Made by a program: the position numbers and the translations under genes. Below are positions 7,036 to 17,411 of a stretch of DNA of 64,000 nt, in pieces. This DNA is from a virus. Taxonomy: Duplodnaviria > Caudoviricetes. Below the pieces are notes generated by a model that worked only from the letters and a program-made list of their open reading frames with translations, ran no database searches and was not told the origin of the DNA. Positions within the stretch are counted from its first letter, which is position 1, and each line of letters opens with the position of its first letter. The stretch lies in the IMG/VR virus record IMGVR_UViG_3300044695_005922, positions 41-64,040 of that record; one strand, written 5' to 3'.

Positions 7036-7115
7036 CATGGGACTGGTTATTCGGTGCAAAGTTGTTTCTGATTTCTTTAATCATTATGTTCATCCTCGAC
7101 AGGGTTATCAAATGA
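7032..7115 (+). CDS. 27-aa hydrophobic peptide (not in ORF track)
   Basis: ATGA overlaps at both ends; MTWDWLFGAKLFLISLIIMFILDRVIK. Confidence 0.45.
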   Translation: MTWDWLFGAKLFLISLIIMFILDRVIK

Positions 7116-8212
7116 AAATCGTCAAGTCAAGTGAATGGTTGATTTCCGAAAACAAGAATGGTGGTGAAAAGTTCTGGCGGTTGCACATCGTCAAGGACGG
7201 TGCAAACTATTACACGCAGACTGAATGGTACCAGATTAGTAAGACTGGTCGTGAAACGAAACGTCAGACCTCTGAACCATACTTTGCTGCTCCCACGAAC
7301 GTTGGTCGTGCAAATGAACGAAATTCCCAAGAGCAGGCAGACTTTGAGTATGACGCCGTTATTAAGAAGCAACGTGATAAGGGATTCCGTGCAAAGGGTG
7401 AACGGAAAGATGTTCGTCCAATGCCGATGCTCGCCCATAAGTTCTCTGACCACAAGGGAAAGGTGGAGTTTCCTGTTTACGTTCAGCCCAAGTTGAACGG
7501 GATGCGAATGCTGTTCGATGGTGAGAACGGCTGGAGTCGGGGTAATAAAGAAGTTATTCCAGAAGTCATTCAGCACTTGAAGTTTGATGCAGGTGGGTTT
7601 ATTCTTGATGGTGAGTTGATGTTGCCGAACAACGTACTGTTGCAGGAGAGTATGACGGCAATCAAGAAATATCGTCCAGAATTGTCACCAAATCTTTTAT
7701 ATCACGTATATGATATTGTGGATAGTGAACTTCCTTATGCGAAACGTCAGCAGATTATTCACGATATTCTCCACGATGCTCCCCCCAACGTTGTTCGTGT
7801 TCCTACGTGGGAAGCGTTCAATGAGGCGGATGTGTTGGTCTGGCACAAGTCATTCACTCGTGATGGGTTTGAGGGAACAATGATTCGAAATCCAGATATG
7901 CAGTATGAAATTGGAAAACGGTCATATTCACTACTTAAATTAAAGGATTTTATTGATGATGAATATCGTATTGTTGATATTATTGACGGTGATGGAAGCG
8001 ATAAGAATCTCGCCATATTTATTCTCGAAACCGATGATGGACAGCATTTTAATTGCCGTCCGGAGGGATCACAAGAAAATCGTAGAGAACTTTACAAGAA
8101 CCGCTCTAAACTGATTGGTCTATATGTGACTGTGAGGTATCAAGAATTATCCAGAGATGGTATACCCATCTTCCCAGTGGGAGTCGGTATTAGAGAATTG
8201 GGAGACTTTTAA
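7112..8212 (+). CDS. lig: ATP-dependent DNA ligase
   Basis: Motif I QPKLNGMR, LDGEL, YHVYDI, FEGTMIR, LLKLK; OB-fold end VTVRYQELSRDGIPIFPV; likely start 7112. Confidence 0.92.
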   Translation: MKIVKSSEWLISENKNGGEKFWRLHIVKDGANYYTQTEWYQISKTGRETKRQTSEPYFAAPTNVGRANERNSQEQADFEYDAVIKKQRDKGFRAKGERKDVRPMPMLAHKFSDHKGKVEFPVYVQPKLNGMRMLFDGENGWSRGNKEVIPEVIQHLKFDAGGFILDGELMLPNNVLLQESMTAIKKYRPELSPNLLYHVYDIVDSELPYAKRQQIIHDILHDAPPNVVRVPTWEAFNEADVLVWHKSFTRDGFEGTMIRNPDMQYEIGKRSYSLLKLKDFIDDEYRIVDIIDGDGSDKNLAIFILETDDGQHFNCRPEGSQENRRELYKNRSKLIGLYVTVRYQELSRDGIPIFPVGVGIRELGDF

Positions 8213-8218
8213 AATACA

Positions 8219-8335
8219 GGCGGTGCAGTCGGTCGGGACGACGGTAGTAAATTGGGCTCGCTACTCGTTATATCATTTACTACGCTAGCCAAGGACTTAG
8301 GGAAACCTATGTGGGGTTCGAATCCCCCACCGCCA
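8219..8335 (+). ncRNA. tRNA-like structured RNA with non-canonical anticodon and variable regions
   Basis: Acceptor stem GGCGGTG/CACCGCC+A, D-like stem GTCG/CGAC, T arm GGGG-TTCGAAT-CCCC, 9-bp stem GTAGTAAAT/ATTTACTAC, TAGG-GAAA-CCTA hairpin. Confidence 0.65.
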
Positions 8336-8348
8336 CTGTGAGGTGATT

Positions 8349-8933
8349 ATGGCATTAGAAAACTATTTTGTAGAGCATATCAGTTTTTCGGAAACAGTTA
8401 GAAATTTTCTTCGTCGCTGGCATTATTCGGATTATGTGAATATACAAGAAAAAGAAACATTTGGATTATTTCGTGAAGGAGTATTCCTACCAGAATTGGT
8501 GGGTGTTTGCGTTTATACCCGTCCAGCAGGTGCTTCCGCGGCACAAAAATATTATCCCGCCGATCCTGACAAATGTTTGGAACTTCGTAGATTGTGTTTA
8601 ATTGATGACACACCAAAAAACGCTGAGAGTTTTTTCGTAGGTAGAACATTAAAATGGTTACGAAAAAATAGTGAGTGGAAATTCGTAGTCAGCTATGCAG
8701 ACGAACAGCAAGGACACAAAGGTATTATTTATAAAGCAGCGAACTTTAAATACGAAGGTATGACTGCACCAGGGACTACATTGATGGTAGACGGAAAATC
8801 GTTCCACGTTCGCACACTTACTATGGTGGATAGACCATACGGGGTTGAAATCAATAACAGATACAAACGTGGTGACCCAGGCGTACAGGTAATAAAAACC
8901 AAACCAAAACACATCTATACCTACGCATTATGA
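8349..8933 (+). CDS. Mom-like GNAT DNA-modification protein
   Basis: WHYS, LELRRLC, NAESFFVG, VVSYADEQQGHKGIIYKAANF, KHIY. Confidence 0.8.
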   Translation: MALENYFVEHISFSETVRNFLRRWHYSDYVNIQEKETFGLFREGVFLPELVGVCVYTRPAGASAAQKYYPADPDKCLELRRLCLIDDTPKNAESFFVGRTLKWLRKNSEWKFVVSYADEQQGHKGIIYKAANFKYEGMTAPGTTLMVDGKSFHVRTLTMVDRPYGVEINNRYKRGDPGVQVIKTKPKHIYTYAL

Positions 8934-9304
8934 ACGATGATGAAAATAAAAATCCAAACGCATTAACGTATGGAATCACGCCTAACGCACCAGCAACAAT
9001 TCATCCAGTTGATGTTGATACTTGGAAAGCAGAAGTGTCTCCCACGTTTAAACATTATTTTAAAGAACGGTATGATGTTGTTGTGCAGGATTATGAAAAG
9101 TTGGTACGAGAATATTCTATCAATAAAATGTTGTATGAAAGTTCAATAAGTTTTAAGCCGAATATTGGGGATACTTACTATCTATATAAGAAGCAAAATG
9201 GATCTGCTTTTATATCACTGGTAAATCCTGCTCAAGCGTTCTGGGGTGGATATGTCGGTACTTTTAAATTAAACGCCCAGTATGCATGGGAAGAGGTTTT
9301 ATGA
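8930..9304 (+). CDS. DUF2452-like protein
   Basis: FKPNIGDTYYLY..ISLVNP..GTFKL..W pattern. Confidence 0.6.
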   Translation: MNDDENKNPNALTYGITPNAPATIHPVDVDTWKAEVSPTFKHYFKERYDVVVQDYEKLVREYSINKMLYESSISFKPNIGDTYYLYKKQNGSAFISLVNPAQAFWGGYVGTFKLNAQYAWEEVL

Positions 9305-10155
9305 CGATAGATTATAGTAGGGTTATCCAAGCACAACCCGATGGTTATGATGTAGAGGTGTTTAAACAAATTAAGTTGCAAAAGGGATTTGTTAAAAAAG
9401 AATTTCCATACAAGAAAGTTTCTGGTATGTATGTTCATTCTTTTAATCCATCTACATTACCCACCTCATTTGCCAATAACGATTCTCGCTTAAACACATT
9501 GGCACAAATTGCTCCACGAGCAGTACCTACTATATGGAATACCATAACAAATTTAGTGGATGTATTCACTCCAATCGAACTCGCAGCCGATAGGAACGAA
9601 TTCTCATGCCAGTTGGCGGCAGTTGAATATCCAAATTCTTGGATTGTTATGGCTCCTCTTCCTGGTGATACAGTGGTTACGGTTCGAAATATGTATCACG
9701 AAATGATTCATTGGAAATTTACAGCACTAGGATTTGGAAAGGGATGTACACCAGAAGTATTCGATATGTTACATCACAATAATGAATTTGTCTTAAATCC
9801 AGTTGAAGAACTACATCACTCTATTGTGAATAGTTATGATGACACAGCACAAGCTGCTGTTGGACACAAAGCATCAGGCCGTCCCATTAGTGCGTCACTT
9901 CATGCATATGCCTCATTCTTGGGTGAAGCTGAAGTATCTCTACGTTTCGTACAACACGATTTTAAAGCACATTACCATTGGTTGGGTTACGCGAAGAAGT
10001 GGGGAGATAGATTGAACGAATCCTTGGAGGCTTTGATGTTAAAGGCACATACCACGGAAAAGGGAGCACAATTACTTCTTGGATTGTACCGATGGACTCG
10101 TGATTATCAAGAAGAATATAAAGACACACTTAAAACATTATCTAAATTGATGTAA
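9301..10155 (+). CDS. aKG-HExxH-like putative peptide beta-hydroxylase, copy 1
   Basis: HEMIHWK plus downstream RPISASLHAYASF; paralog of 61598..62437; start 9301 by ATGA overlap and paralog alignment. Confidence 0.6.
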   Translation: MTIDYSRVIQAQPDGYDVEVFKQIKLQKGFVKKEFPYKKVSGMYVHSFNPSTLPTSFANNDSRLNTLAQIAPRAVPTIWNTITNLVDVFTPIELAADRNEFSCQLAAVEYPNSWIVMAPLPGDTVVTVRNMYHEMIHWKFTALGFGKGCTPEVFDMLHHNNEFVLNPVEELHHSIVNSYDDTAQAAVGHKASGRPISASLHAYASFLGEAEVSLRFVQHDFKAHYHWLGYAKKWGDRLNESLEALMLKAHTTEKGAQLLLGLYRWTRDYQEEYKDTLKTLSKLM

Positions 10156-10760
10156 TGTATTCGTTGACCGCATCTCTTCCGTATCACTTATATGGTCAAG
10201 TTCGTCGTGAATTTATTACCAATGGAACGGACACTGGACTAGATAATTGTATTATTCATGCAGTCTCAGTTAGACCCACCCAAGCGTTGACATTTTCTGT
10301 GTTATTGGAAAATGGTGCACAATATCGTGGTGTACCTATTCACGGACTTGTTATTGGACAAGATACCACCAAACAAATACCTCCTGCAAAAAATTTGCAT
10401 ACTCATCAAGTGTGGGGATGTTTCGGTACAGAATTTGGTATTATAGATATGAAGTTTTCCAAAGGATTAAGTGCTGAGTGGGTGGATTCACACGGTAACA
10501 AATTTTCCGGCCGTGGATTAGGATGGGCAATAGAATTTTATGACGATGGTTATTCCAATGCACCACAACAAGATAAAAGTTTTAATATGTTGGTGTCGGA
10601 AGAAGGGTATCTCGCAGCCATGCCAAACAATCGGGTACGCTGGTGGGAAGATAGCTTTACTAATTGGAAATTACCAATAAAATTAAAAGTGAATCACAAA
10701 ATATATTATGTAGAAAGTATAGGAATTAATCCAGAAGAAACTGCTTTTGTAAAGGAGTAG
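10155..10760 (+). CDS. Hypothetical phage protein
   Basis: Intact 201-aa ORF coupled to the upstream gene (TAATG). Confidence 0.6.
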   Translation: MYSLTASLPYHLYGQVRREFITNGTDTGLDNCIIHAVSVRPTQALTFSVLLENGAQYRGVPIHGLVIGQDTTKQIPPAKNLHTHQVWGCFGTEFGIIDMKFSKGLSAEWVDSHGNKFSGRGLGWAIEFYDDGYSNAPQQDKSFNMLVSEEGYLAAMPNNRVRWWEDSFTNWKLPIKLKVNHKIYYVESIGINPEETAFVKE

Positions 10761-10763
10761 CAT

Positions 10764-11129
10764 ATGGGACTGTTTGATGAAATACGAGTGGAACAGATAT
10801 TACCTGGTGAATACGAAATTACGGATACATGGTATCAAACAAAATCATTTGACTGTGTAATGGCCAACTATGTTATTACTGCTAGAGGTGAATTATATGA
10901 AGAAAAGTGGGATTGGGAATGGATAGGTGATGAAACTGCATTTTTGGGTGGACACATAGAAAAAATAAAAGATAGTTATCGTCGTGAGTACTTGACAGAC
11001 TTCCACGGGGATATTATATTTTATGGAAGTAAACCAAAGGAAGGTACGAATCGTGTATGGCGTGATTACTATGCAAGATTTACTAACGGTAGATTATCAA
11101 GAATTTGGTATAAAGATAAACAATATTAA
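10764..11129 (+). CDS. Hypothetical phage protein
   Basis: AAGGAG RBS; MGLFD..WYQTKSFDC. Confidence 0.6.
   Translation: MGLFDEIRVEQILPGEYEITDTWYQTKSFDCVMANYVITARGELYEEKWDWEWIGDETAFLGGHIEKIKDSYRREYLTDFHGDIIFYGSKPKEGTNRVWRDYYARFTNGRLSRIWYKDKQY
10992..11020 (+). promoter_or_regulatory. Intragenic sigma70-like promoter upstream of the clamp cluster
   Basis: TTGACA-N17-TATATT. Confidence 0.6.
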
Positions 11130-11183
11130 AGAGGTTAACGGTTATGGTAAACTTGACAGATTGTGGATGCGGGAATGGGATAG

Positions 11184-11852
11184 ATGGTAAACGATGTAGT
11201 TTTTGAAAAAATTATTGAAGATAAAGAACGTACATTTGTTCTTACCAATTCTTGTACACCCAAATCTATATTTACGTGGAGTAATGTAGAAAGTTATATA
11301 AATGATAATTACCACAATTCTGATATTGTTATTATTGGTGATAATAAATCAAAAATAGAAACGTACAGAAGTACAGAAACAAGTAGTACGCCTACTAAAA
11401 CTATAGCTTCTGAAATTTATGATGGTAAATCATTTATATTAAATGCAATGGAACGGTATACCAAAGGACTATTCTACGCATCAAATATATTTTCACAGAT
11501 ACAAAATAGATATGTCAGTACAAATATTTACGGTGGATTGAAAAATACTTCCAAGTCATTCCACGCACACGCAGATTCCCAATATGTGTTAATATTACAA
11601 TTAGATGGAATTTCCGATTGGACAGTATACGCAGAAACTTGGAACGGAAATCCAAATGAAGTTATTTGTTTAAATGATGATTTATTAAAAAAAGATTTGG
11701 TGTACACTTTACATCCTGGGGATGTGTTGTATATTCCATACAGAAGGTATCATAAGTGTATTCCAAGAAGTAAAAGATTGTCAGCAAGTATAAGTGCAGA
11801 TTTTGGTACGGTACGCCCATCACATTACGGTGATTGGTTCGGTTTTAATTAA
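11184..11852 (+). CDS. JmjC/cupin_4 2OG-Fe(II) oxygenase
   Basis: NIY..SFHAHAD..LILQLDG..W..LHPGDVLYIP..YH..RLSAS. Confidence 0.8.
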   Translation: MVNDVVFEKIIEDKERTFVLTNSCTPKSIFTWSNVESYINDNYHNSDIVIIGDNKSKIETYRSTETSSTPTKTIASEIYDGKSFILNAMERYTKGLFYASNIFSQIQNRYVSTNIYGGLKNTSKSFHAHADSQYVLILQLDGISDWTVYAETWNGNPNEVICLNDDLLKKDLVYTLHPGDVLYIPYRRYHKCIPRSKRLSASISADFGTVRPSHYGDWFGFN

Positions 11853-11872: not shown

Positions 11873-12592
11873 ATGGAAAAGACAAAGTTGGAAAAGTTCA
11901 TTAGTAAGTATTCTCTTGGTGGTTCTTGTGAAAGTGTGTTGTGGAAGTCGGACGGTAATGATATCACGGTAAAGTGTATTTCCGACGACAAGAATGTACT
12001 TGGTATTGTTACAGTCAAGGACGCCAAGCTGGACGAAGGTGACTATGGTATCTTTGATACTAAGCAGTTGTCATCAATGTTATCGGTTCTTGGTGAAGCA
12101 GTTACGATTACCACCAAGAAGGTCGGTGACAGAGTTTCTGCCGTCCATCTCACTGATAATAACGTAAAGGTTGATTACGTATTGGCGGATTCCGCAGTTA
12201 TCCCCGCTGCACCTGAGTTGAAGCAGCTCCCCGCATTTGATATTGAAATCACGCTAGATCAGAAGGTAATGAATACTTTCTTGAAGGCAAAGGGTGCATT
12301 GTCCGATGTAGAAACTTTTACCGTTCTGAGTGATGGTGATTCTGCACAGATTGTTCTTGGATATTCCGATATGAATACTAATCGTATCACTCTTGATGTA
12401 GAAACTACAAAGAATGCAAAAATTACTCCCATCAATTTCTCTGCACGATACTTCAAGGAAATCATCGCTGCAAATAAGGAAGCAGCTAGTGGTGTCTTGA
12501 AGGTTAGTAGTAAGGGATTGGCATATGTCAAGTTTGGTGTCACTGATTACAACACCGACTACTACCTCGTCCAGATTCAAACAGCTTCCTAA
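11873..12592 (+). CDS. DNA polymerase sliding clamp (gp45-like)
   Basis: 239 aa, GIFDTKQL, LKVSSKGL..F..DYYLV; next to clamp loader genes. Confidence 0.75.
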   Translation: MEKTKLEKFISKYSLGGSCESVLWKSDGNDITVKCISDDKNVLGIVTVKDAKLDEGDYGIFDTKQLSSMLSVLGEAVTITTKKVGDRVSAVHLTDNNVKVDYVLADSAVIPAAPELKQLPAFDIEITLDQKVMNTFLKAKGALSDVETFTVLSDGDSAQIVLGYSDMNTNRITLDVETTKNAKITPINFSARYFKEIIAANKEAASGVLKVSSKGLAYVKFGVTDYNTDYYLVQIQTAS

Positions 12593-14028
12593 TGTCATTC
12601 TTTGAGTTCAACGATACTCCAAAGCAAGCACAGTATACACCCCCTTCTGCGAAGAAACCGCCGAAGGGTGGTGTTGTCTTGAATACCAGTGCCACTGATT
12701 TTTTCAGTGGTGAAGGTACATCGTTTGATTTTGATATAGAAAAAAATAAGTTTGTTCAACATATGGGTATGTTGAAAAATCAATCGGTGCAAGAAAATAC
12801 GTTGTATAAGAAGTGGAAAGAACTAACAACGGATTTTAATAATACAAAAGATATTCAGCTTGCACAAATTGTTGAAGCCAAGATATGGCGGCCAACAGAT
12901 ATTACGAATAAGAATTTAACTGTCCACGAGATCAACGCGATTGATCCAGAAATTATTATTGTAGAACCGGAAGATATACAATATTTCAATGATTGGAAAT
13001 ACATTAGAGTATTTTGTCATACAATGGAATTTACCGCAAATGTTGGTCGTTTGATTCGTGTACTCATTCGTGATCGTTCGTCTGGAAAATATGTTGGGGC
13101 TGCCTCACTTGGTTCCGATGTAGCCTCCATCAATGTCCGTGATCAGTGGATTGGGTGGTCAAAAGAAAATAAATTTACGCATGGGTTGTTAAATTCTACT
13201 GCAATTTGTACAACTATCATTCCAACACAACCATTCGGATATAATTTCTTGGGTGGTAAGATGATAGCTTCATTACTCACTACAAAAGTGATTCGTGATG
13301 AATGGAAAAGAAAGTTTGGTAACGTATTGGTTGGGGTGACTACAACCTCACTATACGGTTCGCATAGTATGTATCAACGTATCCCGTTTTGGAAAGAATT
13401 GGGAGTTACTGCTGGAAAGATTTCTCTTAAACCAGACGATGATGTATTTGAAAAGTGGGCAAACTATCTAAAAGTTAATCACTCAGAAGGATTTGATAAA
13501 TGTACAATTCCATATTTTGGTGATATTACACAAGAGGGTCAGTCATGGATATGCACTGATGGCACAACCAAAATAACAGCCTCGTCGCGTGATGAGTTAG
13601 TGTCCATATTGGAAAACGATAACTACTCTGTACATAGTACTGGTGAAGTATACGATAAGAAGTGTCGATGTGGGTCACCACCGACAGGACCAAAGTTACA
13701 GCAGATGTTACTTTTATATAAAATATTAGGTATTAAACCCAGTGACTACGAACATGGATTTCAACGTGGAGTTTATTTCGCTCCAATGTATGAAAATACA
13801 CGTGAGTTTCTTCGTGGAGAAATCAACGAAGATAAACTAATATTATCACAGAAGTTGACAAATGATGTTGAGAGTGTTATGTTATGGTGGAGAGATAAAG
13901 CAATCAAAAGATATTTGAATCTATTTGATAATAACCGTTTAAATGGTGAAACGTTATATTATCGTAAAATGATTCAGATGACTTGGGAAGAATCCAAGAA
14001 CACTTATCTGGGTGAGGTTGGACGATGA
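12592..14028 (+). CDS. DUF4338 (DruA-like) GNAT-related protein
   Basis: GRLIRVLIRD..GKYVG..SLGSD..RDQWIGW, IIPTQPFGYNFLGGKMIA, TTTSLYG..MYQR. Confidence 0.75.
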   Translation: MSFFEFNDTPKQAQYTPPSAKKPPKGGVVLNTSATDFFSGEGTSFDFDIEKNKFVQHMGMLKNQSVQENTLYKKWKELTTDFNNTKDIQLAQIVEAKIWRPTDITNKNLTVHEINAIDPEIIIVEPEDIQYFNDWKYIRVFCHTMEFTANVGRLIRVLIRDRSSGKYVGAASLGSDVASINVRDQWIGWSKENKFTHGLLNSTAICTTIIPTQPFGYNFLGGKMIASLLTTKVIRDEWKRKFGNVLVGVTTTSLYGSHSMYQRIPFWKELGVTAGKISLKPDDDVFEKWANYLKVNHSEGFDKCTIPYFGDITQEGQSWICTDGTTKITASSRDELVSILENDNYSVHSTGEVYDKKCRCGSPPTGPKLQQMLLLYKILGIKPSDYEHGFQRGVYFAPMYENTREFLRGEINEDKLILSQKLTNDVESVMLWWRDKAIKRYLNLFDNNRLNGETLYYRKMIQMTWEESKNTYLGEVGR

Positions 14029-16583: not shown

Positions 16584-17411
16584 ATGGAACAAACGTTTGT
16601 TGATACGTCCCGTGTCTCAGTTAGAGAAATTAGTAAAGCTGTGGCACGGGATTTTATCGAAAAGCACCATTACACACATAAGTTCAGTTCCACACGATAT
16701 GCCCTAGGGATTTTTTATCGTGAGGAAACTGAACATATGTTCTTTGCCGGTGAAAACGAACAGTTGATTGGTTGTATGACTTATGGGCATCCTGTAAGTA
16801 ATAGAACGGTTGATAGTATCGTAGATGGATTGGAATTAGACGAAGTATTAGAACTCACCAGATTGGTTATTCTTGATGGATATGGAAAGAATATTGAGAG
16901 TTATTCTATTGCACAATCCTTCCACTGGATGAGAGATAATGATTCACGAGTAAAAGTATTGGTTAGTTACGCAGACCCAGAACAGTCACACACGGGTGGT
17001 ATTTACCGAGCAACTAATTGGATATATCAGGGATGTGGATATTCCAAGTTGATGCCTGATTTCTCACTTCTCTTAGAGGAAGGTGGATTGTGGATGCATT
17101 CACGAACAGTGGGGGCAAAGTTTGGCAATAAATCTGTGGAGAACCTAGCAAAACGAATTGGTCGTACGTTTTGGAGAAAAGAAGAAACTGCTAAACATCG
17201 GTATATTTATTTTCTCTGTGACAAGAAGGAAAAGAAACGTATGATGAAAAACTTAAAGATTCCAATCATACCATATAACGATATTAAAGAATACGTACAG
17301 TTGATTCAAAAGGTCACTGTCACCGATGGAGTTGTAGAAAACATCGAAGTTATTCAAGGTGTAGATAATGGGTGGAAACCTCAGAAAGTACAATTGAAGG
17401 AGAATGTATGA
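16584..17411 (+). CDS. Mom-like GNAT DNA-modification protein, second copy
   Basis: HHYT, VLELTRL, NIESYSI, VSYADPEQSHTGGIYRATNWIYQG, KHRYIY. Confidence 0.8.
   Translation: MEQTFVDTSRVSVREISKAVARDFIEKHHYTHKFSSTRYALGIFYREETEHMFFAGENEQLIGCMTYGHPVSNRTVDSIVDGLELDEVLELTRLVILDGYGKNIESYSIAQSFHWMRDNDSRVKVLVSYADPEQSHTGGIYRATNWIYQGCGYSKLMPDFSLLLEEGGLWMHSRTVGAKFGNKSVENLAKRIGRTFWRKEETAKHRYIYFLCDKKEKKRMMKNLKIPIIPYNDIKEYVQLIQKVTVTDGVVENIEVIQGVDNGWKPQKVQLKENV

What the first reader, a model, noticed from the sequence alone, without database searches (positions are those of the whole stretch)
8219..8335. tRNA-mimic RNA without a normal anticodon arm
Seen: a perfect 7-bp acceptor stem plus discriminator A, a 4-bp D-like stem and a canonical TTCGAAT T-loop, but only a 4-bp T stem. 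The anticodon arm is replaced by a 9-bp stem with a 22-nt loop, followed by a long variable region containing a GAAA-tetraloop hairpin. No CCA is encoded, and it lacks the G3:U70 pair and tag ORF of tmRNA. Inference: a tRNA-shaped decoy (for anticodon nucleases or synthetases), a processing signal, or an intron-containing tRNA.
Basis: seen in the sequence. Interest (0 to 1): 0.7.

Follow-up and report, generated by a model that had tools for sequence, protein, structure and literature searches.

The report
Anticodon-less tRNA look-alike beside phage Mom
A lake-water phage carries a conserved small RNA that is shaped like a tRNA but has no anticodon, usually directly in front of a gene for Mom, an enzyme type known to take an amino acid from charged tRNA to disguise DNA, so it may be that enzyme's private carrier.

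Summary
Window 8219-8335 (+) folds as described: 7-bp acceptor stem, discriminator A, 4-bp D stem, 4-bp T stem with a TTCGAAT loop, a 9-bp arm with a 22-nt loop instead of an anticodon arm, a GAAA-capped extra hairpin, and no CCA. ARAGORN and Rfam call no tRNA or tmRNA.

It is a real RNA family. Across 31 distinct homologues from viral and lake metagenome contigs, 95.6% of cells pair, 21 of 30 pairs show two-sided changes, and 0 of 500 shuffles reach this.

It is not an intron-containing tRNA, because the long stem itself covaries.

The next gene (8349-8933) is a Mom-family gene. Mu Mom transfers glycine from Gly-tRNA to DNA adenine (PMC13219725). A Mom-family gene starts within 2 kb downstream in 24 of 31 contexts with enough sequence.

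Best reading (about 0.35): a non-decoding tRNA-like carrier serving Mom-type DNA modification. Against this, it lacks the glycine acceptor identity, persists where the adjacent Mom gene is absent, and occurs in a second phage lineage where no Mom was found.

The scan has noted Mom genes with private tRNA-Gly look-alikes on other DNA, but no note of this RNA family on another genome was returned.

The parts
8219..8225 (+). acceptor stem, 5' strand (GGCGGTG)
   Evidence: Pairs with 8328-8334. In this helix 6 of 7 pairs show two-sided changes across 31 sequences and 98.6% of cells pair.
8228..8242 (+). D-like arm: 4-bp stem GTCG/CGAC with 7-nt loop GTCGGGA containing GG
   Evidence: 100% of cells pair. 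Pair 12:22 occurs as U-A 21 times, C-G 9 times and G-C once. The loop was fixed in my patterns but is also present in the loci found through the protein.
8244..8252 (+). long arm, 5' strand (GTAGTAAAT), in place of the anticodon stem
   Evidence: Pairs with 8275-8283. 8 of 9 pairs show two-sided changes. The stem sequences differ widely between homologues.
8253..8274 (+). apical 22 nt of the long arm: candidate small hairpin TGGG-CTCGCTA-CTCG (8253-8267) followed by the conserved GTTAYA
   Evidence: The consensus GGG(Y0-2)CGCTAC ... GTTAYA holds in 31 of the 33 distinct sequences; L106 and L082 differ in GTTAYA. The small hairpin is read by eye and was not tested by pair counts.
8275..8283 (+). 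long arm, 3' strand (ATTTACTAC)
8284..8295 (+). conserved unpaired joining stretch GCTAGCCAAGGA
   Evidence: GCTA(N0-1)GCCAAGGA in all 33 distinct sequences, partly by construction of the patterns. It shares the 7-mer GCCAAGG with the anticodon arm of E. coli glyV.
8296..8311 (+). optional extra hairpin with GAAA loop
   Evidence: Present in 15 of the 31 aligned sequences. 3 of its 6 pairs show two-sided changes. It is absent in the 102-107 nt forms.
8313..8327 (+). T arm: 4-bp stem GGGG/CCCC with loop TTCGAAT
   Evidence: 100% of cells pair and 3 of 4 pairs show two-sided changes. This is the only part that any Rfam model matches.
8328..8335 (+). acceptor stem, 3' strand (CACCGCC), and discriminator A; no CCA encoded
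   Evidence: The discriminator is A in 27 of the 31 aligned sequences and is T, T, G or C in the other four.
8349..8933 (+). Mom-family gene (Mom1), whose start lies 14 nt after the RNA
   Evidence: Pfam PF25680 at E 2.2e-36. PHROG 'Mom-like DNA modification protein' at E 1.2e-46. Mu Mom structure 8bv8 at E 9.6e-11. The Arg and Ser that I equate with the paper's essential R111 and S124 are invariant columns.
8930..9304 (+). DUF2452 gene, the usual partner of Mom1 in these phages
   Evidence: Pfam PF10504. It lies beside Mom1 in either order. No function was found.
16584..17411 (+). second Mom-family gene (Mom2)
   Evidence: PF25680 at E 1.4e-46. Present in 7 of the 9 records of this lineage that were searched.
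12592..13700 (+). DruA-like gene downstream of the clamp gene
   Evidence: Pfam PF14236 at E 4.4e-21. Syntenic in most loci.
7037..8212 (+). ATP-dependent DNA ligase gene, ending 6 nt before the RNA
   Evidence: Pfam PF01068 and PF14743.

Best explanation
The element is a separate, non-decoding tRNA-like RNA gene of a family not in Rfam.

Shown: a covarying cloverleaf that keeps the acceptor helix, a GG-containing D loop and a canonical T loop, but replaces the anticodon arm by an 8-10 bp arm with a conserved apical motif.

Inferred: it is transcribed with its neighbours. It is cut out like a tRNA, by RNase P at G1 and by a 3' end-maker after the discriminator. The host adds CCA. It is then loaded with an amino acid or other acyl group and serves as a private donor for the phage's Mom-family DNA-modifying enzymes, first of all the Mom gene that starts 14 nt downstream. 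Lacking an anticodon, and having an acceptor/T helix one pair short, it would stay out of translation. Which enzyme loads it and with what is unknown. The conserved apical loop and joining stretch would be the marks that enzyme or Mom reads.
For: 1. Real structure.

2. It is a separate gene rather than a leader of one particular gene. The downstream gene is Mom1, DUF2452, an amidase, an HExxH-type gene, a homing-endonuclease-like gene, or a gene on the other strand.

3. Mom link. A Mom-family gene starts within 2 kb downstream in 24 of the 31 distinct contexts that have at least 2 kb downstream. Counting also shorter loci in which Mom was seen, 27 of 38 start within 400 nt. The link survives rearrangements: RNA-Mom-DUF2452, RNA-DUF2452-Mom, RNA-X-DUF2452-Mom, RNA-small ORF-Mom and RNA-amidase-c12-Mom.

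4. Mu Mom uses Gly-tRNAGly as donor, needs the terminal A, and seems to read mainly the acceptor end (PMC13219725, sections read).

5. Both window Mom proteins keep the Arg and Ser I equate with R111 and S124.

6. Mom genes with a tRNA of their own recur elsewhere. I examined 58 of the 80 loci returned around Mu-Mom relatives (L197-L254; I left out the 22 closest to Mu). ARAGORN's default settings find 4 tRNAs there, 3 of them tRNA-Gly starting 30-64 nt after the Mom match. At 90% threshold, at least 11 loci have a GCG...CGC-T-CCA glycine-like RNA next to Mom.

7. Related records hold 21-31 ordinary tRNAs in a cluster. In the one record where I placed both, the cluster is at about 15-26 kb and this RNA at about 139 kb in the DNA-modification island. 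So it is not part of the decoding set.

8. 28 of 29 tRNAs in that cluster also lack an encoded CCA, so the host must add CCA anyway.
Against: 1. The glycine identity set listed in PMC9976931 (G1-C72, C2-G71, G3-C70, U73, C35, C36) is not met. The element has G2-C71 in 31 of 31 sequences, C3-G70 in 30 of 31, mostly A73, and no anticodon loop.

2. The discriminator is not fixed (A in 27 of 31), which is odd for a single charging enzyme.

3. 7 of 31 contexts have no Mom within 2 kb: L002, L025, L042, L035, L130, L123 and L089.

4. In the second lineage (L034, L035, L043, L044, L040) no Mom-family match was found in 5 of 5 records, though these are only 3-24% complete. The neighbours there are nucleases and a phosphoesterase.

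5. Mom1 relatives at about 50% identity (L016-L024) have no such RNA and no tRNA nearby.

6. A related record has an odd tRNA-Gly(TCC), the only one of 29 with an encoded CCA, which could be the Mom donor instead.

7. The apical hairpin motif also occurs in T4 RNAD, and as far as I recall T4 has no Mom.

8. There are no expression data for the element. The contexts are related phages, not independent events.
Confidence: 0.35

Rival explanations
1. It is a general phage tRNA mimic with a function independent of Mom, of the kind of T4's stable RNAs C and D. Once cut out by the tRNA-processing enzymes, it would bind or titrate a host or phage factor that recognises the tRNA elbow plus the conserved apical hairpin. 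That factor could be a tRNA-targeting defence nuclease, a modification enzyme, a synthetase or the ribosome. The position beside Mom would be inherited synteny in a variable island.
For: The RNA is present without an adjacent Mom in 7 of 31 contexts. In a second phage lineage it lies among nucleases and near tRNA genes, with no Mom found. T4 RNAC has a T arm, an acceptor-like end and long arms, and some records annotate it as a tRNA. T4 RNAD's 5' hairpin CCGG-GTCGCTA-CCGG has the same loop motif as the element's apical hairpin and is invariant in T4, RB69 and AlbertHofmann while the middle of RNAD diverges. The motif GGG(Y0-2)CGCTAC occurs once in the 10-kb T4 locus, inside rnaD, against a background of 1.9e-5 per base. 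The strongly conserved apical loop and joining stretch point to a specific partner.
Against: There is no homology to RNAC or RNAD beyond the short motif: the best model scores on the T4 locus are 14.6 bits or less, and those fall on real tRNAs or on the wrong strand. The T4 resemblance was noticed after the fact. No target is known. The loop does not resemble an anticodon loop, so a decoy for anticodon nucleases is unlikely. The roles of RNAC and RNAD are themselves unknown (PMC3014915; PMC9697503).
Confidence: 0.3
2. It is a processing or punctuation element. The tRNA shape serves only to recruit RNase P and the 3' end-maker so that the long early transcript is cut between the ligase gene and the variable island. 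This would set the 5' end, stability and translation of the downstream message. The excised RNA itself would have no role.
For: No promoter-like or terminator-like site above chance lies around it: 7 promoter-like sites against 6.7 expected, and 1 terminator-like site against 1.8 expected. It starts 6-12 nt after the upstream stop in many loci, and the ribosome-binding site of the next gene follows within a few bases. It always sits at the head of the variable island.
Against: A cutting signal needs only the acceptor/T helix. Here the long arm, its apical motif and the 12-nt joining stretch are conserved as well. In L035 the next gene is on the other strand, and in L034 it starts 96 nt away.
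Confidence: 0.15
3. It is a decoding tRNA after all, either carrying a small intron or using an unusual anticodon arm.
For: ARAGORN at 80% threshold proposes a tRNA-Ser(ACT) with a 28-nt intron. Real tRNA-Ser(ACT) genes of related phages score 23-28 bits with the element's model and have a near-identical extra arm. This suggests descent from a long-arm tRNA.
Against: ARAGORN with introns allowed finds nothing at its normal threshold. The proposed exon stem is not kept in the homologues, and the long stem covaries. No 7-nt loop with a conserved U33 can be placed consistently. As far as I know, no splicing system for such introns exists in bacteria.
Confidence: 0.03

Closest known systems
tRNA-Gly and deformed tRNA-Gly-like genes next to Mom-family genes in other phages (seen here; noted earlier by this scan). 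I found no printed description.
   Same: A small tRNA-shaped RNA directly beside a Mom-family gene on the same strand. Several have deformed D or anticodon arms that standard finders miss at default settings.
   Different: Those RNAs are 70-76 nt and lie after mom. They keep the glycine acceptor end (GCG...CGC, T73) and an encoded CCA, and most keep an anticodon arm. This element is 102-124 nt and lies before mom. It has GGC...GCC and mostly A73, no CCA, a 4-bp T stem, and a long arm with its own conserved motif.
Phage Mu Mom with host Gly-tRNAGly (Silva et al., Nat Commun 2026, PMC13219725; PDB 8bv8)
   Same: The neighbouring gene belongs to the same Pfam family (PF25680) and keeps the two residues I equate with the essential R111 and S124.
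   Different: Mu uses the host's ordinary glycine tRNAs and encodes no RNA donor. Window Mom1 is shorter (194 aa against 231) and about 30% identical to Mu Mom. Its donor and product are unknown.
Non-proteinogenic tRNA-Gly of Staphylococcus, used for cell-wall bridges (as summarised in PMC9976931, passage)
   Same: The concept of a tRNA set aside for a transferase and kept away from EF-Tu by changes in the T stem. Here the 49-65 pair is missing altogether.
   Different: Those are otherwise normal 75-nt glycine tRNAs with anticodons, encoded by the cell.
T4 stable RNAs C and D (species 1 and 2 RNA; AF158101 70908-71171)
   Same: Phage-encoded, non-decoding RNAs made alongside tRNAs. RNAC has a T arm, an acceptor-like end and long arms. 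RNAD's conserved 5' hairpin carries the same CGCTA-type loop as the element's apical hairpin.
   Different: There is no overall sequence or model similarity. RNAC and RNAD lie in the tRNA cluster, and their roles are unknown.
tmRNA tRNA-like domain
   Same: An acceptor stem and T arm with a long helix leaving from where the anticodon arm would be.
   Different: No G3:U70 pair, no tag reading frame and no pseudoknots. It has a true D stem. Neither ARAGORN nor Rfam calls a tmRNA.

Membership tests
canonical tRNA (Rfam RF00005 / ARAGORN) | scores above the threshold of tRNA detectors | tested here: not met
   ARAGORN finds 0 genes in the window and none with introns allowed at normal threshold. 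Rfam gives no match at gathering score, and no tRNA-model match at E<=10.
canonical tRNA (Rfam RF00005 / ARAGORN) | 7-bp acceptor stem, D arm with GG, and a T loop of the TTCRANT type | tested here: met
canonical tRNA (Rfam RF00005 / ARAGORN) | 5-bp anticodon stem with a 7-nt loop, and a 5-bp T stem | tested here: not met
   An 8-10 bp stem with 18-27 nt beyond it in 29 of 33 distinct sequences (4 have a stem interrupted by an internal loop), and a 4-bp T stem, in all 33 distinct sequences.
intron-containing tRNA | removing the insert leaves a conserved anticodon stem-loop | tested here: not met
   The stem used by ARAGORN at 80% threshold is not kept in the homologues (by eye). The 'insert' is half of a covarying helix.
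tmRNA | G3:U70 pair, tag reading frame, pseudoknots | tested here: not met
   Pair 3:70 is C:G in 30 of 31 sequences. ARAGORN's tmRNA mode finds nothing. The Rfam tmRNA model matches only the T hairpin, at 8.1 bits against a gathering score of 47.
Mom-adjacent tRNA-Gly-like RNAs | glycine acceptor end (G1-C72, C2-G71, G3-C70, U73) and encoded CCA | tested here: not met
   The element has G2-C71, C3-G70, mostly A73 and no CCA. The comparison set is and the identity set in PMC9976931.
Mom-adjacent tRNA-Gly-like RNAs | lies directly beside a Mom-family gene on the same strand | tested here: met
   14 nt before Mom1 in the window. Mom lies within 2 kb downstream in 24 of 31 contexts.
T4 RNAC / RNAD | sequence or structure homology over the length of the RNA | tested here: not met
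   The element's model scores 14.6 bits or less on the T4 locus, and not on rnaC or rnaD in the sense direction. Only a 10-nt hairpin motif is shared with RNAD.
aminoacylatable tRNA-like RNA (functional class) | carries an amino acid on a 3' CCA end in vivo | not testable with these tools
   No reads over the element: the one RNA run that held part of the stretch covers 8805-8955 only.
YrlA / Y RNA-like tRNA mimics | match to the Rfam models | tested here: not met
   No such match at E<=10. That these models are part of Rfam 15 is my recollection.

The most novel reading that the evidence does not exclude
This would be a new class of phage-encoded, anticodon-less carrier RNA. It would be a tRNA remodelled so that only the acceptor/T-arm 'handle' and the elbow remain, with a new arm and joining stretch as private identity marks. 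It would be loaded outside the normal tRNA identity rules and would feed a Mom-type enzyme that aminoacylates DNA. With a second Mom paralogue and an odd CCA-bearing tRNA-Gly in related genomes, the phage would run two orthogonal donor-enzyme pairs for two different DNA hypermodifications. The shared hairpin motif might then also give a first handle on the 50-year-old question of what T4 RNAC and RNAD do.
Probability: 0.25. Interest if true: 0.88.

Novelty: new variant of a known kind. Interest (0 to 1): 0.72.

Why it matters
That Mom enzymes draw on charged tRNA to modify DNA was published only in 2026, and that paper's main text mentions no phage-encoded donor. If this RNA is such a donor, it would show three things. 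Phages can evolve private, translation-blind carriers for DNA hypermodification. A tRNA can be stripped of its decoding half and given new recognition parts. And Mom-family enzymes may use donors other than Gly-tRNAGly. An orthogonal RNA-enzyme pair of this kind would also be useful for enzymatic DNA labelling. Even if the Mom link fails, this is a well-supported new structured RNA family with a tRNA core, found in abundant lake phages.

Tried and rejected
- **GenBank phages:** a distant-mode search with window 8100-8450 gave no match.
- **Prokaryote genomes:** the three-motif pattern hit 67 stretches, mostly G+C-rich genomes, and 0 of 67 were confirmed by the model. Of the metagenome scan's 80 listed loci, 38 gave model matches and the rest were chance. 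L027, L041 and L045 from the viral scans were also chance matches.
- **Expression:** one RNA run held 5% of the sampled words. When laid, its single 151-nt contig covers 8805-8955, the Mom1/DUF2452 junction, and not the element. A second RNA run gave nothing. This says nothing about whether the RNA is made.
- **Antisense target:** the complement of the apical motif (GAGTAGCG) occurs nowhere else in the window, and there is no second copy of the motif.
- **Pairing within the RNA:** pairing between the apical loop and the joining stretch (GCTA with TAGC, GGC with GCC) is not kept across the variants, by eye. I dropped it.
- **Short reading frame:** a frame starting at the ATG in the extra hairpin is not conserved (absent in L012-type sequences).
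- **DUF2452:** no PHROG match. The Atlas shows only its own family. The AlphaFold model has mean pLDDT 62.4, with residues 1-46 disordered, and Foldseek against the PDB gives nothing at E<=0.001.
- **Helper enzymes:** no CCA-adding enzyme (PF01743) or class IIa synthetase core (PF00587) in the window's record. No PF01743 in four related records of 71-167 kb.
- **Other Mom genes here:** no tRNA-like RNA near Mom2 or the DruA-like gene in the window, nor near Mom in L017-L024 and L048-L051.
- **Not seen:** supplementary files of PMC13219725 (sequence-similarity network, contig lists) were not opened. They may hold gene-neighbourhood data that bear on the claim that no Mom-linked RNA is in print.
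- **Searches behind 'not in print':**, plus term look-ups inside the paper and its preprint.
Full report
**What is there.** Window 8219-8335 lies between a DNA ligase gene (7037-8212) and a 194-aa gene (8349-8933), all on the + strand.
- a perfect 7-bp acceptor stem and discriminator A;
- a 4-bp D-like stem with a GG-containing 7-nt loop;
- a 9-bp stem closing 22 nt where the anticodon arm should be;
- a 12-nt unpaired stretch;
- a GAAA-capped hairpin;
- a 4-bp T stem with loop TTCGAAT;
- no encoded CCA.

The minimum-energy fold is exactly this drawing, but its energy is ordinary (z = -1.28). ARAGORN finds no tRNA or tmRNA in the whole window. Rfam finds nothing at gathering score, and at E<=10 only the 15-nt T hairpin matches any model.

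**It is a conserved RNA.** Relatives of the downstream protein in IMG/VR brought 18 loci. In 9 of them the same element lies upstream of the gene: directly upstream in 8, and behind a small ORF in L013. DNA patterns then found more in viral contigs and in metagenome contigs. A covariance model built on 13 distinct sequences scores 58 places at 86-140 bits, which make 33 distinct sequences of 102-124 nt.

Pair counts:

| Alignment | Sequences | Cells paired | Pairs with two-sided change | Shuffles reaching this |
|---|---|---|---|---|
| MAFFT | 13 | 91.7% | 18 of 30 | 0 of 500 |
| Model-fitted | 31 | 95.6% | 21 of 30 | 0 of 500 |

On the model-fitted alignment, versions with partners slid by 1-3 columns pair at only 37-56%. 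Two-sided changes occur in every helix: acceptor 6 of 7 pairs, D 1 of 4, long arm 8 of 9, extra hairpin 3 of 6, T stem 3 of 4. RNAalifold independently recovers the acceptor, D, long and T stems.

Two exceptions should be told. L081 has a 5' acceptor strand that does not match its 3' strand. L047 lacks the 5' strand altogether. They may be recombinants or assembly chimeras.

The three motifs fixed in my later patterns cannot be called invariant on those hits alone. They are, however, present in all loci found through the protein.

**Anatomy across the family.**
- The T stem is always 4 bp, so the acceptor/T helix has 11 pairs instead of 12.
- The long stem has 7-11 pairs of widely differing sequence in 29 of the 33 distinct sequences. 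In the other four (L002, L013, L042, L046) it is interrupted by a small internal loop.
- The apical region reads GGG, 0-2 pyrimidines, CGCTAC, then a few bases, then GTTAYA. Two sequences (L106, L082) differ in GTTAYA. By eye, GGG pairs with the C and the two bases that follow CGCTA, giving a 3-4 bp hairpin whose loop ends in CGCTA. I did not test this by pair counts, because the alignment does not hold the GGG in register.
- After the long arm comes GCTA(N0-1)GCCAAGGA.
- The extra hairpin is present in 15 of 31 sequences and absent in the short forms.
- The discriminator is A in 27 of 31.
- The bases after it are mostly CT, never CCA.

**It is not an intron-containing tRNA.** Only at 80% of ARAGORN's threshold does a tRNA-Ser(ACT) with a 28-nt intron appear. 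That model pairs the first five bases of the long arm with the start of the joining stretch, a pairing not kept in L012- or L034-type sequences, whereas the long helix covaries. Descent from a long-arm tRNA is plausible. Real tRNA-Ser(ACT) genes of related phages score 23-28 bits with the element's model, and their extra arm is almost identical to the window's.

**Context.** The downstream gene is a Mom-family gene: PF25680 at E 2.2e-36, PHROG 'Mom-like', and Mu Mom structure 8bv8 at E 9.6e-11.

Silva et al. (PMC13219725; abstract, sections 10 and 14, and term passages read) showed the following:
- Mu Mom transfers glycine from Gly-tRNAGly to N6 of adenine in double-stranded DNA.
- It needs the terminal adenosine.
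- It accepts all three glycine isoacceptors but not Gly-tRNAAla.
- It probably reads the acceptor end.
- R111 and S124 are essential.

Comparing the crystallised S124A chain with the native Mu protein places that Ser at position 114, and the Arg at 101, of the GenBank protein. The offset of 10 is my inference. Both are invariant columns in an alignment with window Mom1, Mom2 and three relatives.

**How tight is the link?** The RNA sits at the head of a variable island between the ligase and clamp genes.
- Of 50 distinct contexts, 31 have at least 2 kb downstream, and 24 of these have a Mom-family gene starting within 2 kb.
- Counting also shorter loci in which Mom was seen, 31 of 38 have one within 2 kb and 27 of 38 within 400 nt.
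- The order varies: RNA-Mom-DUF2452, RNA-DUF2452-Mom, or with another gene in between.
- The upstream gene also varies.

Seven contexts have none: L002, L025, L042, L035, L130, L123 and L089. Records of this lineage do hold a Mom gene somewhere in 7 of 9 cases (G000, G002, G005, G010, G011, G012, G013). The two without one are 26-27% complete.

A second lineage (L034, L035, L043, L044, L040) carries the RNA among nuclease and phosphoesterase genes, with tRNA genes in the same loci. No Mom match was found in 5 of 5 records, all 3-24% complete. These phages are relatives, so the counts are not independent events.

**Mom genes with their own tRNA elsewhere.** Earlier notes of this scan claimed that Mom genes often carry a private tRNA-Gly look-alike. 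I tested this on 80 loci around Mu-Mom relatives, of which I examined the 58 that are at most 71% identical to Mu Mom.
- ARAGORN at default finds 4 tRNAs, 3 of them tRNA-Gly(TCC) starting 30-64 nt after the Mom match.
- At 90% threshold, at least 11 loci show an RNA ending GCG...CGC-T-CCA next to Mom, several with deformed arms.

So the pairing of Mom with an RNA donor of its own is real and recurrent. I found it in no paper (searches; look-ups; supplements not seen).

The present element differs from those RNAs in almost every respect except its place. It lies before the gene. It has GGC...GCC with mostly A73 and no CCA. It has no anticodon arm and is 30-50 nt longer.

**Can it be charged?** The glycine identity set in the review PMC9976931 (passages) is not met at 2-71, 3-70 and 73, and no anticodon is present. 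The same review reports that E. coli tRNALeu variants lacking the anticodon and extra arms are still leucylated if A73 and the D/T-loop contacts are kept. So an anticodon-less RNA with A73 and an intact elbow is not excluded as a synthetase substrate. That is the most that can be said, and the leucine idea is speculation.

The joining stretch shares GCCAAGG with the anticodon arm of E. coli glyV. I cannot tell whether this is a vestige or chance.

**Other facts bearing on function.**
- Four related records of 71-167 kb each carry 21-31 ordinary tRNA genes. In G011 they lie in a cluster at about 15-26 kb, whereas I place the element there at about 139 kb. None of the RF00005 matches listed for G011 falls in that part of the record.
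- Of 29 tRNAs in that cluster, 28 have no encoded CCA. The exception is an odd tRNA-Gly(TCC) with a GG-less D loop, which is a rival candidate for the Mom donor.
- No CCA-adding enzyme gene was found.
- There is no promoter- or terminator-like site above chance, so the RNA is probably made from a long transcript and cut out.

**T4.** I compared the element with T4's RNAC and RNAD because they are the classical non-decoding phage RNAs made with tRNAs. There is no overall similarity. RNAC does have a T arm, an acceptor-like end and long arms, and some records annotate it as a tRNA. RNAD's 5' hairpin has the loop GTCGCTA closed by CCGG/CCGG, the same motif as the element's apical hairpin. It is invariant in T4, RB69 and AlbertHofmann although the middle of RNAD diverges. 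The motif occurs once in the 10-kb T4 locus, in rnaD, against a background of 1.9e-5 per base in other loci. I noticed this after the fact, so it is a lead and not a result. The functions of RNAC and RNAD are unknown.

**Verdict.**
- Its most likely role, at about 0.35, is a private, non-decoding carrier for Mom-type DNA modification.
- A Mom-independent tRNA mimic (0.3) and a pure processing signal (0.15) remain open.
- A decoding tRNA is very unlikely (0.03).
- Loading with an amino acid, the identity of the loader, and use by Mom are all inferred, not shown.

Noticed in passing
L052 5054-5172 (-), T4 rnaD; also L255 and L256: The 5' hairpin of T4 RNAD (CCGG-GTCGCTA-CCGG), together with the following ~20 nt, is invariant in T4, RB69 and AlbertHofmann while the middle of RNAD diverges. 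Its loop motif equals that of the element's apical hairpin. T4 RNAC carries the complement (GAGTAGCG) twice.
   Followed up: partly
L324 10157-10229 (record G011, about 25.06 kb): Among 29 tRNA genes of a related phage's cluster, one tRNA-Gly(TCC) is odd. It is the only one with an encoded CCA, its D loop has no GG, and it has the lowest RF00005 score (41.7 bits). It resembles the GCG...CGC-T-CCA RNAs found next to Mom genes elsewhere.
   Followed up: partly
L198, L201, L203, L204, L223, L225, L247-L250, L253, L254 (just after the Mom match): Glycine-type tRNA or deformed tRNA-like genes with an encoded CCA lie 15-280 nt after (in L203 overlapping) Mom-family genes in unrelated viral contigs. 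Most are missed by ARAGORN at default settings.
   Followed up: partly
L043 8098-8435 (+) and L044 10382-10719 (+): ARAGORN calls a tmRNA (tag GNYNLALAA) in phage contigs of the second lineage that also carry the element.
   Followed up: no
window 8288-8294: The unpaired joining stretch contains GCCAAGG, the same 7-mer as anticodon GCC plus the following bases in E. coli glyV (L173 861-936).
   Followed up: partly
L081 10097-10215 (-) and L047 11648-11764 (-): Two copies are damaged. L081 has a 5' acceptor strand of one variant and a 3' strand of another (3 mismatched pairs). L047 has lost the 5' acceptor strand.
   Followed up: no
window 9286-11852: Behind Mom1 and DUF2452 come an HExxH-type gene, a gene matching a PHROG named 'ferredoxin', and two genes of unknown function. 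Together they form a variable island whose content changes from phage to phage, and which may be a DNA-hypermodification island.
   Followed up: partly
window 8805-8955: One freshwater metatranscriptome run holds a 151-nt contig across the Mom1/DUF2452 junction. DNA carry-over is not excluded.
   Followed up: no
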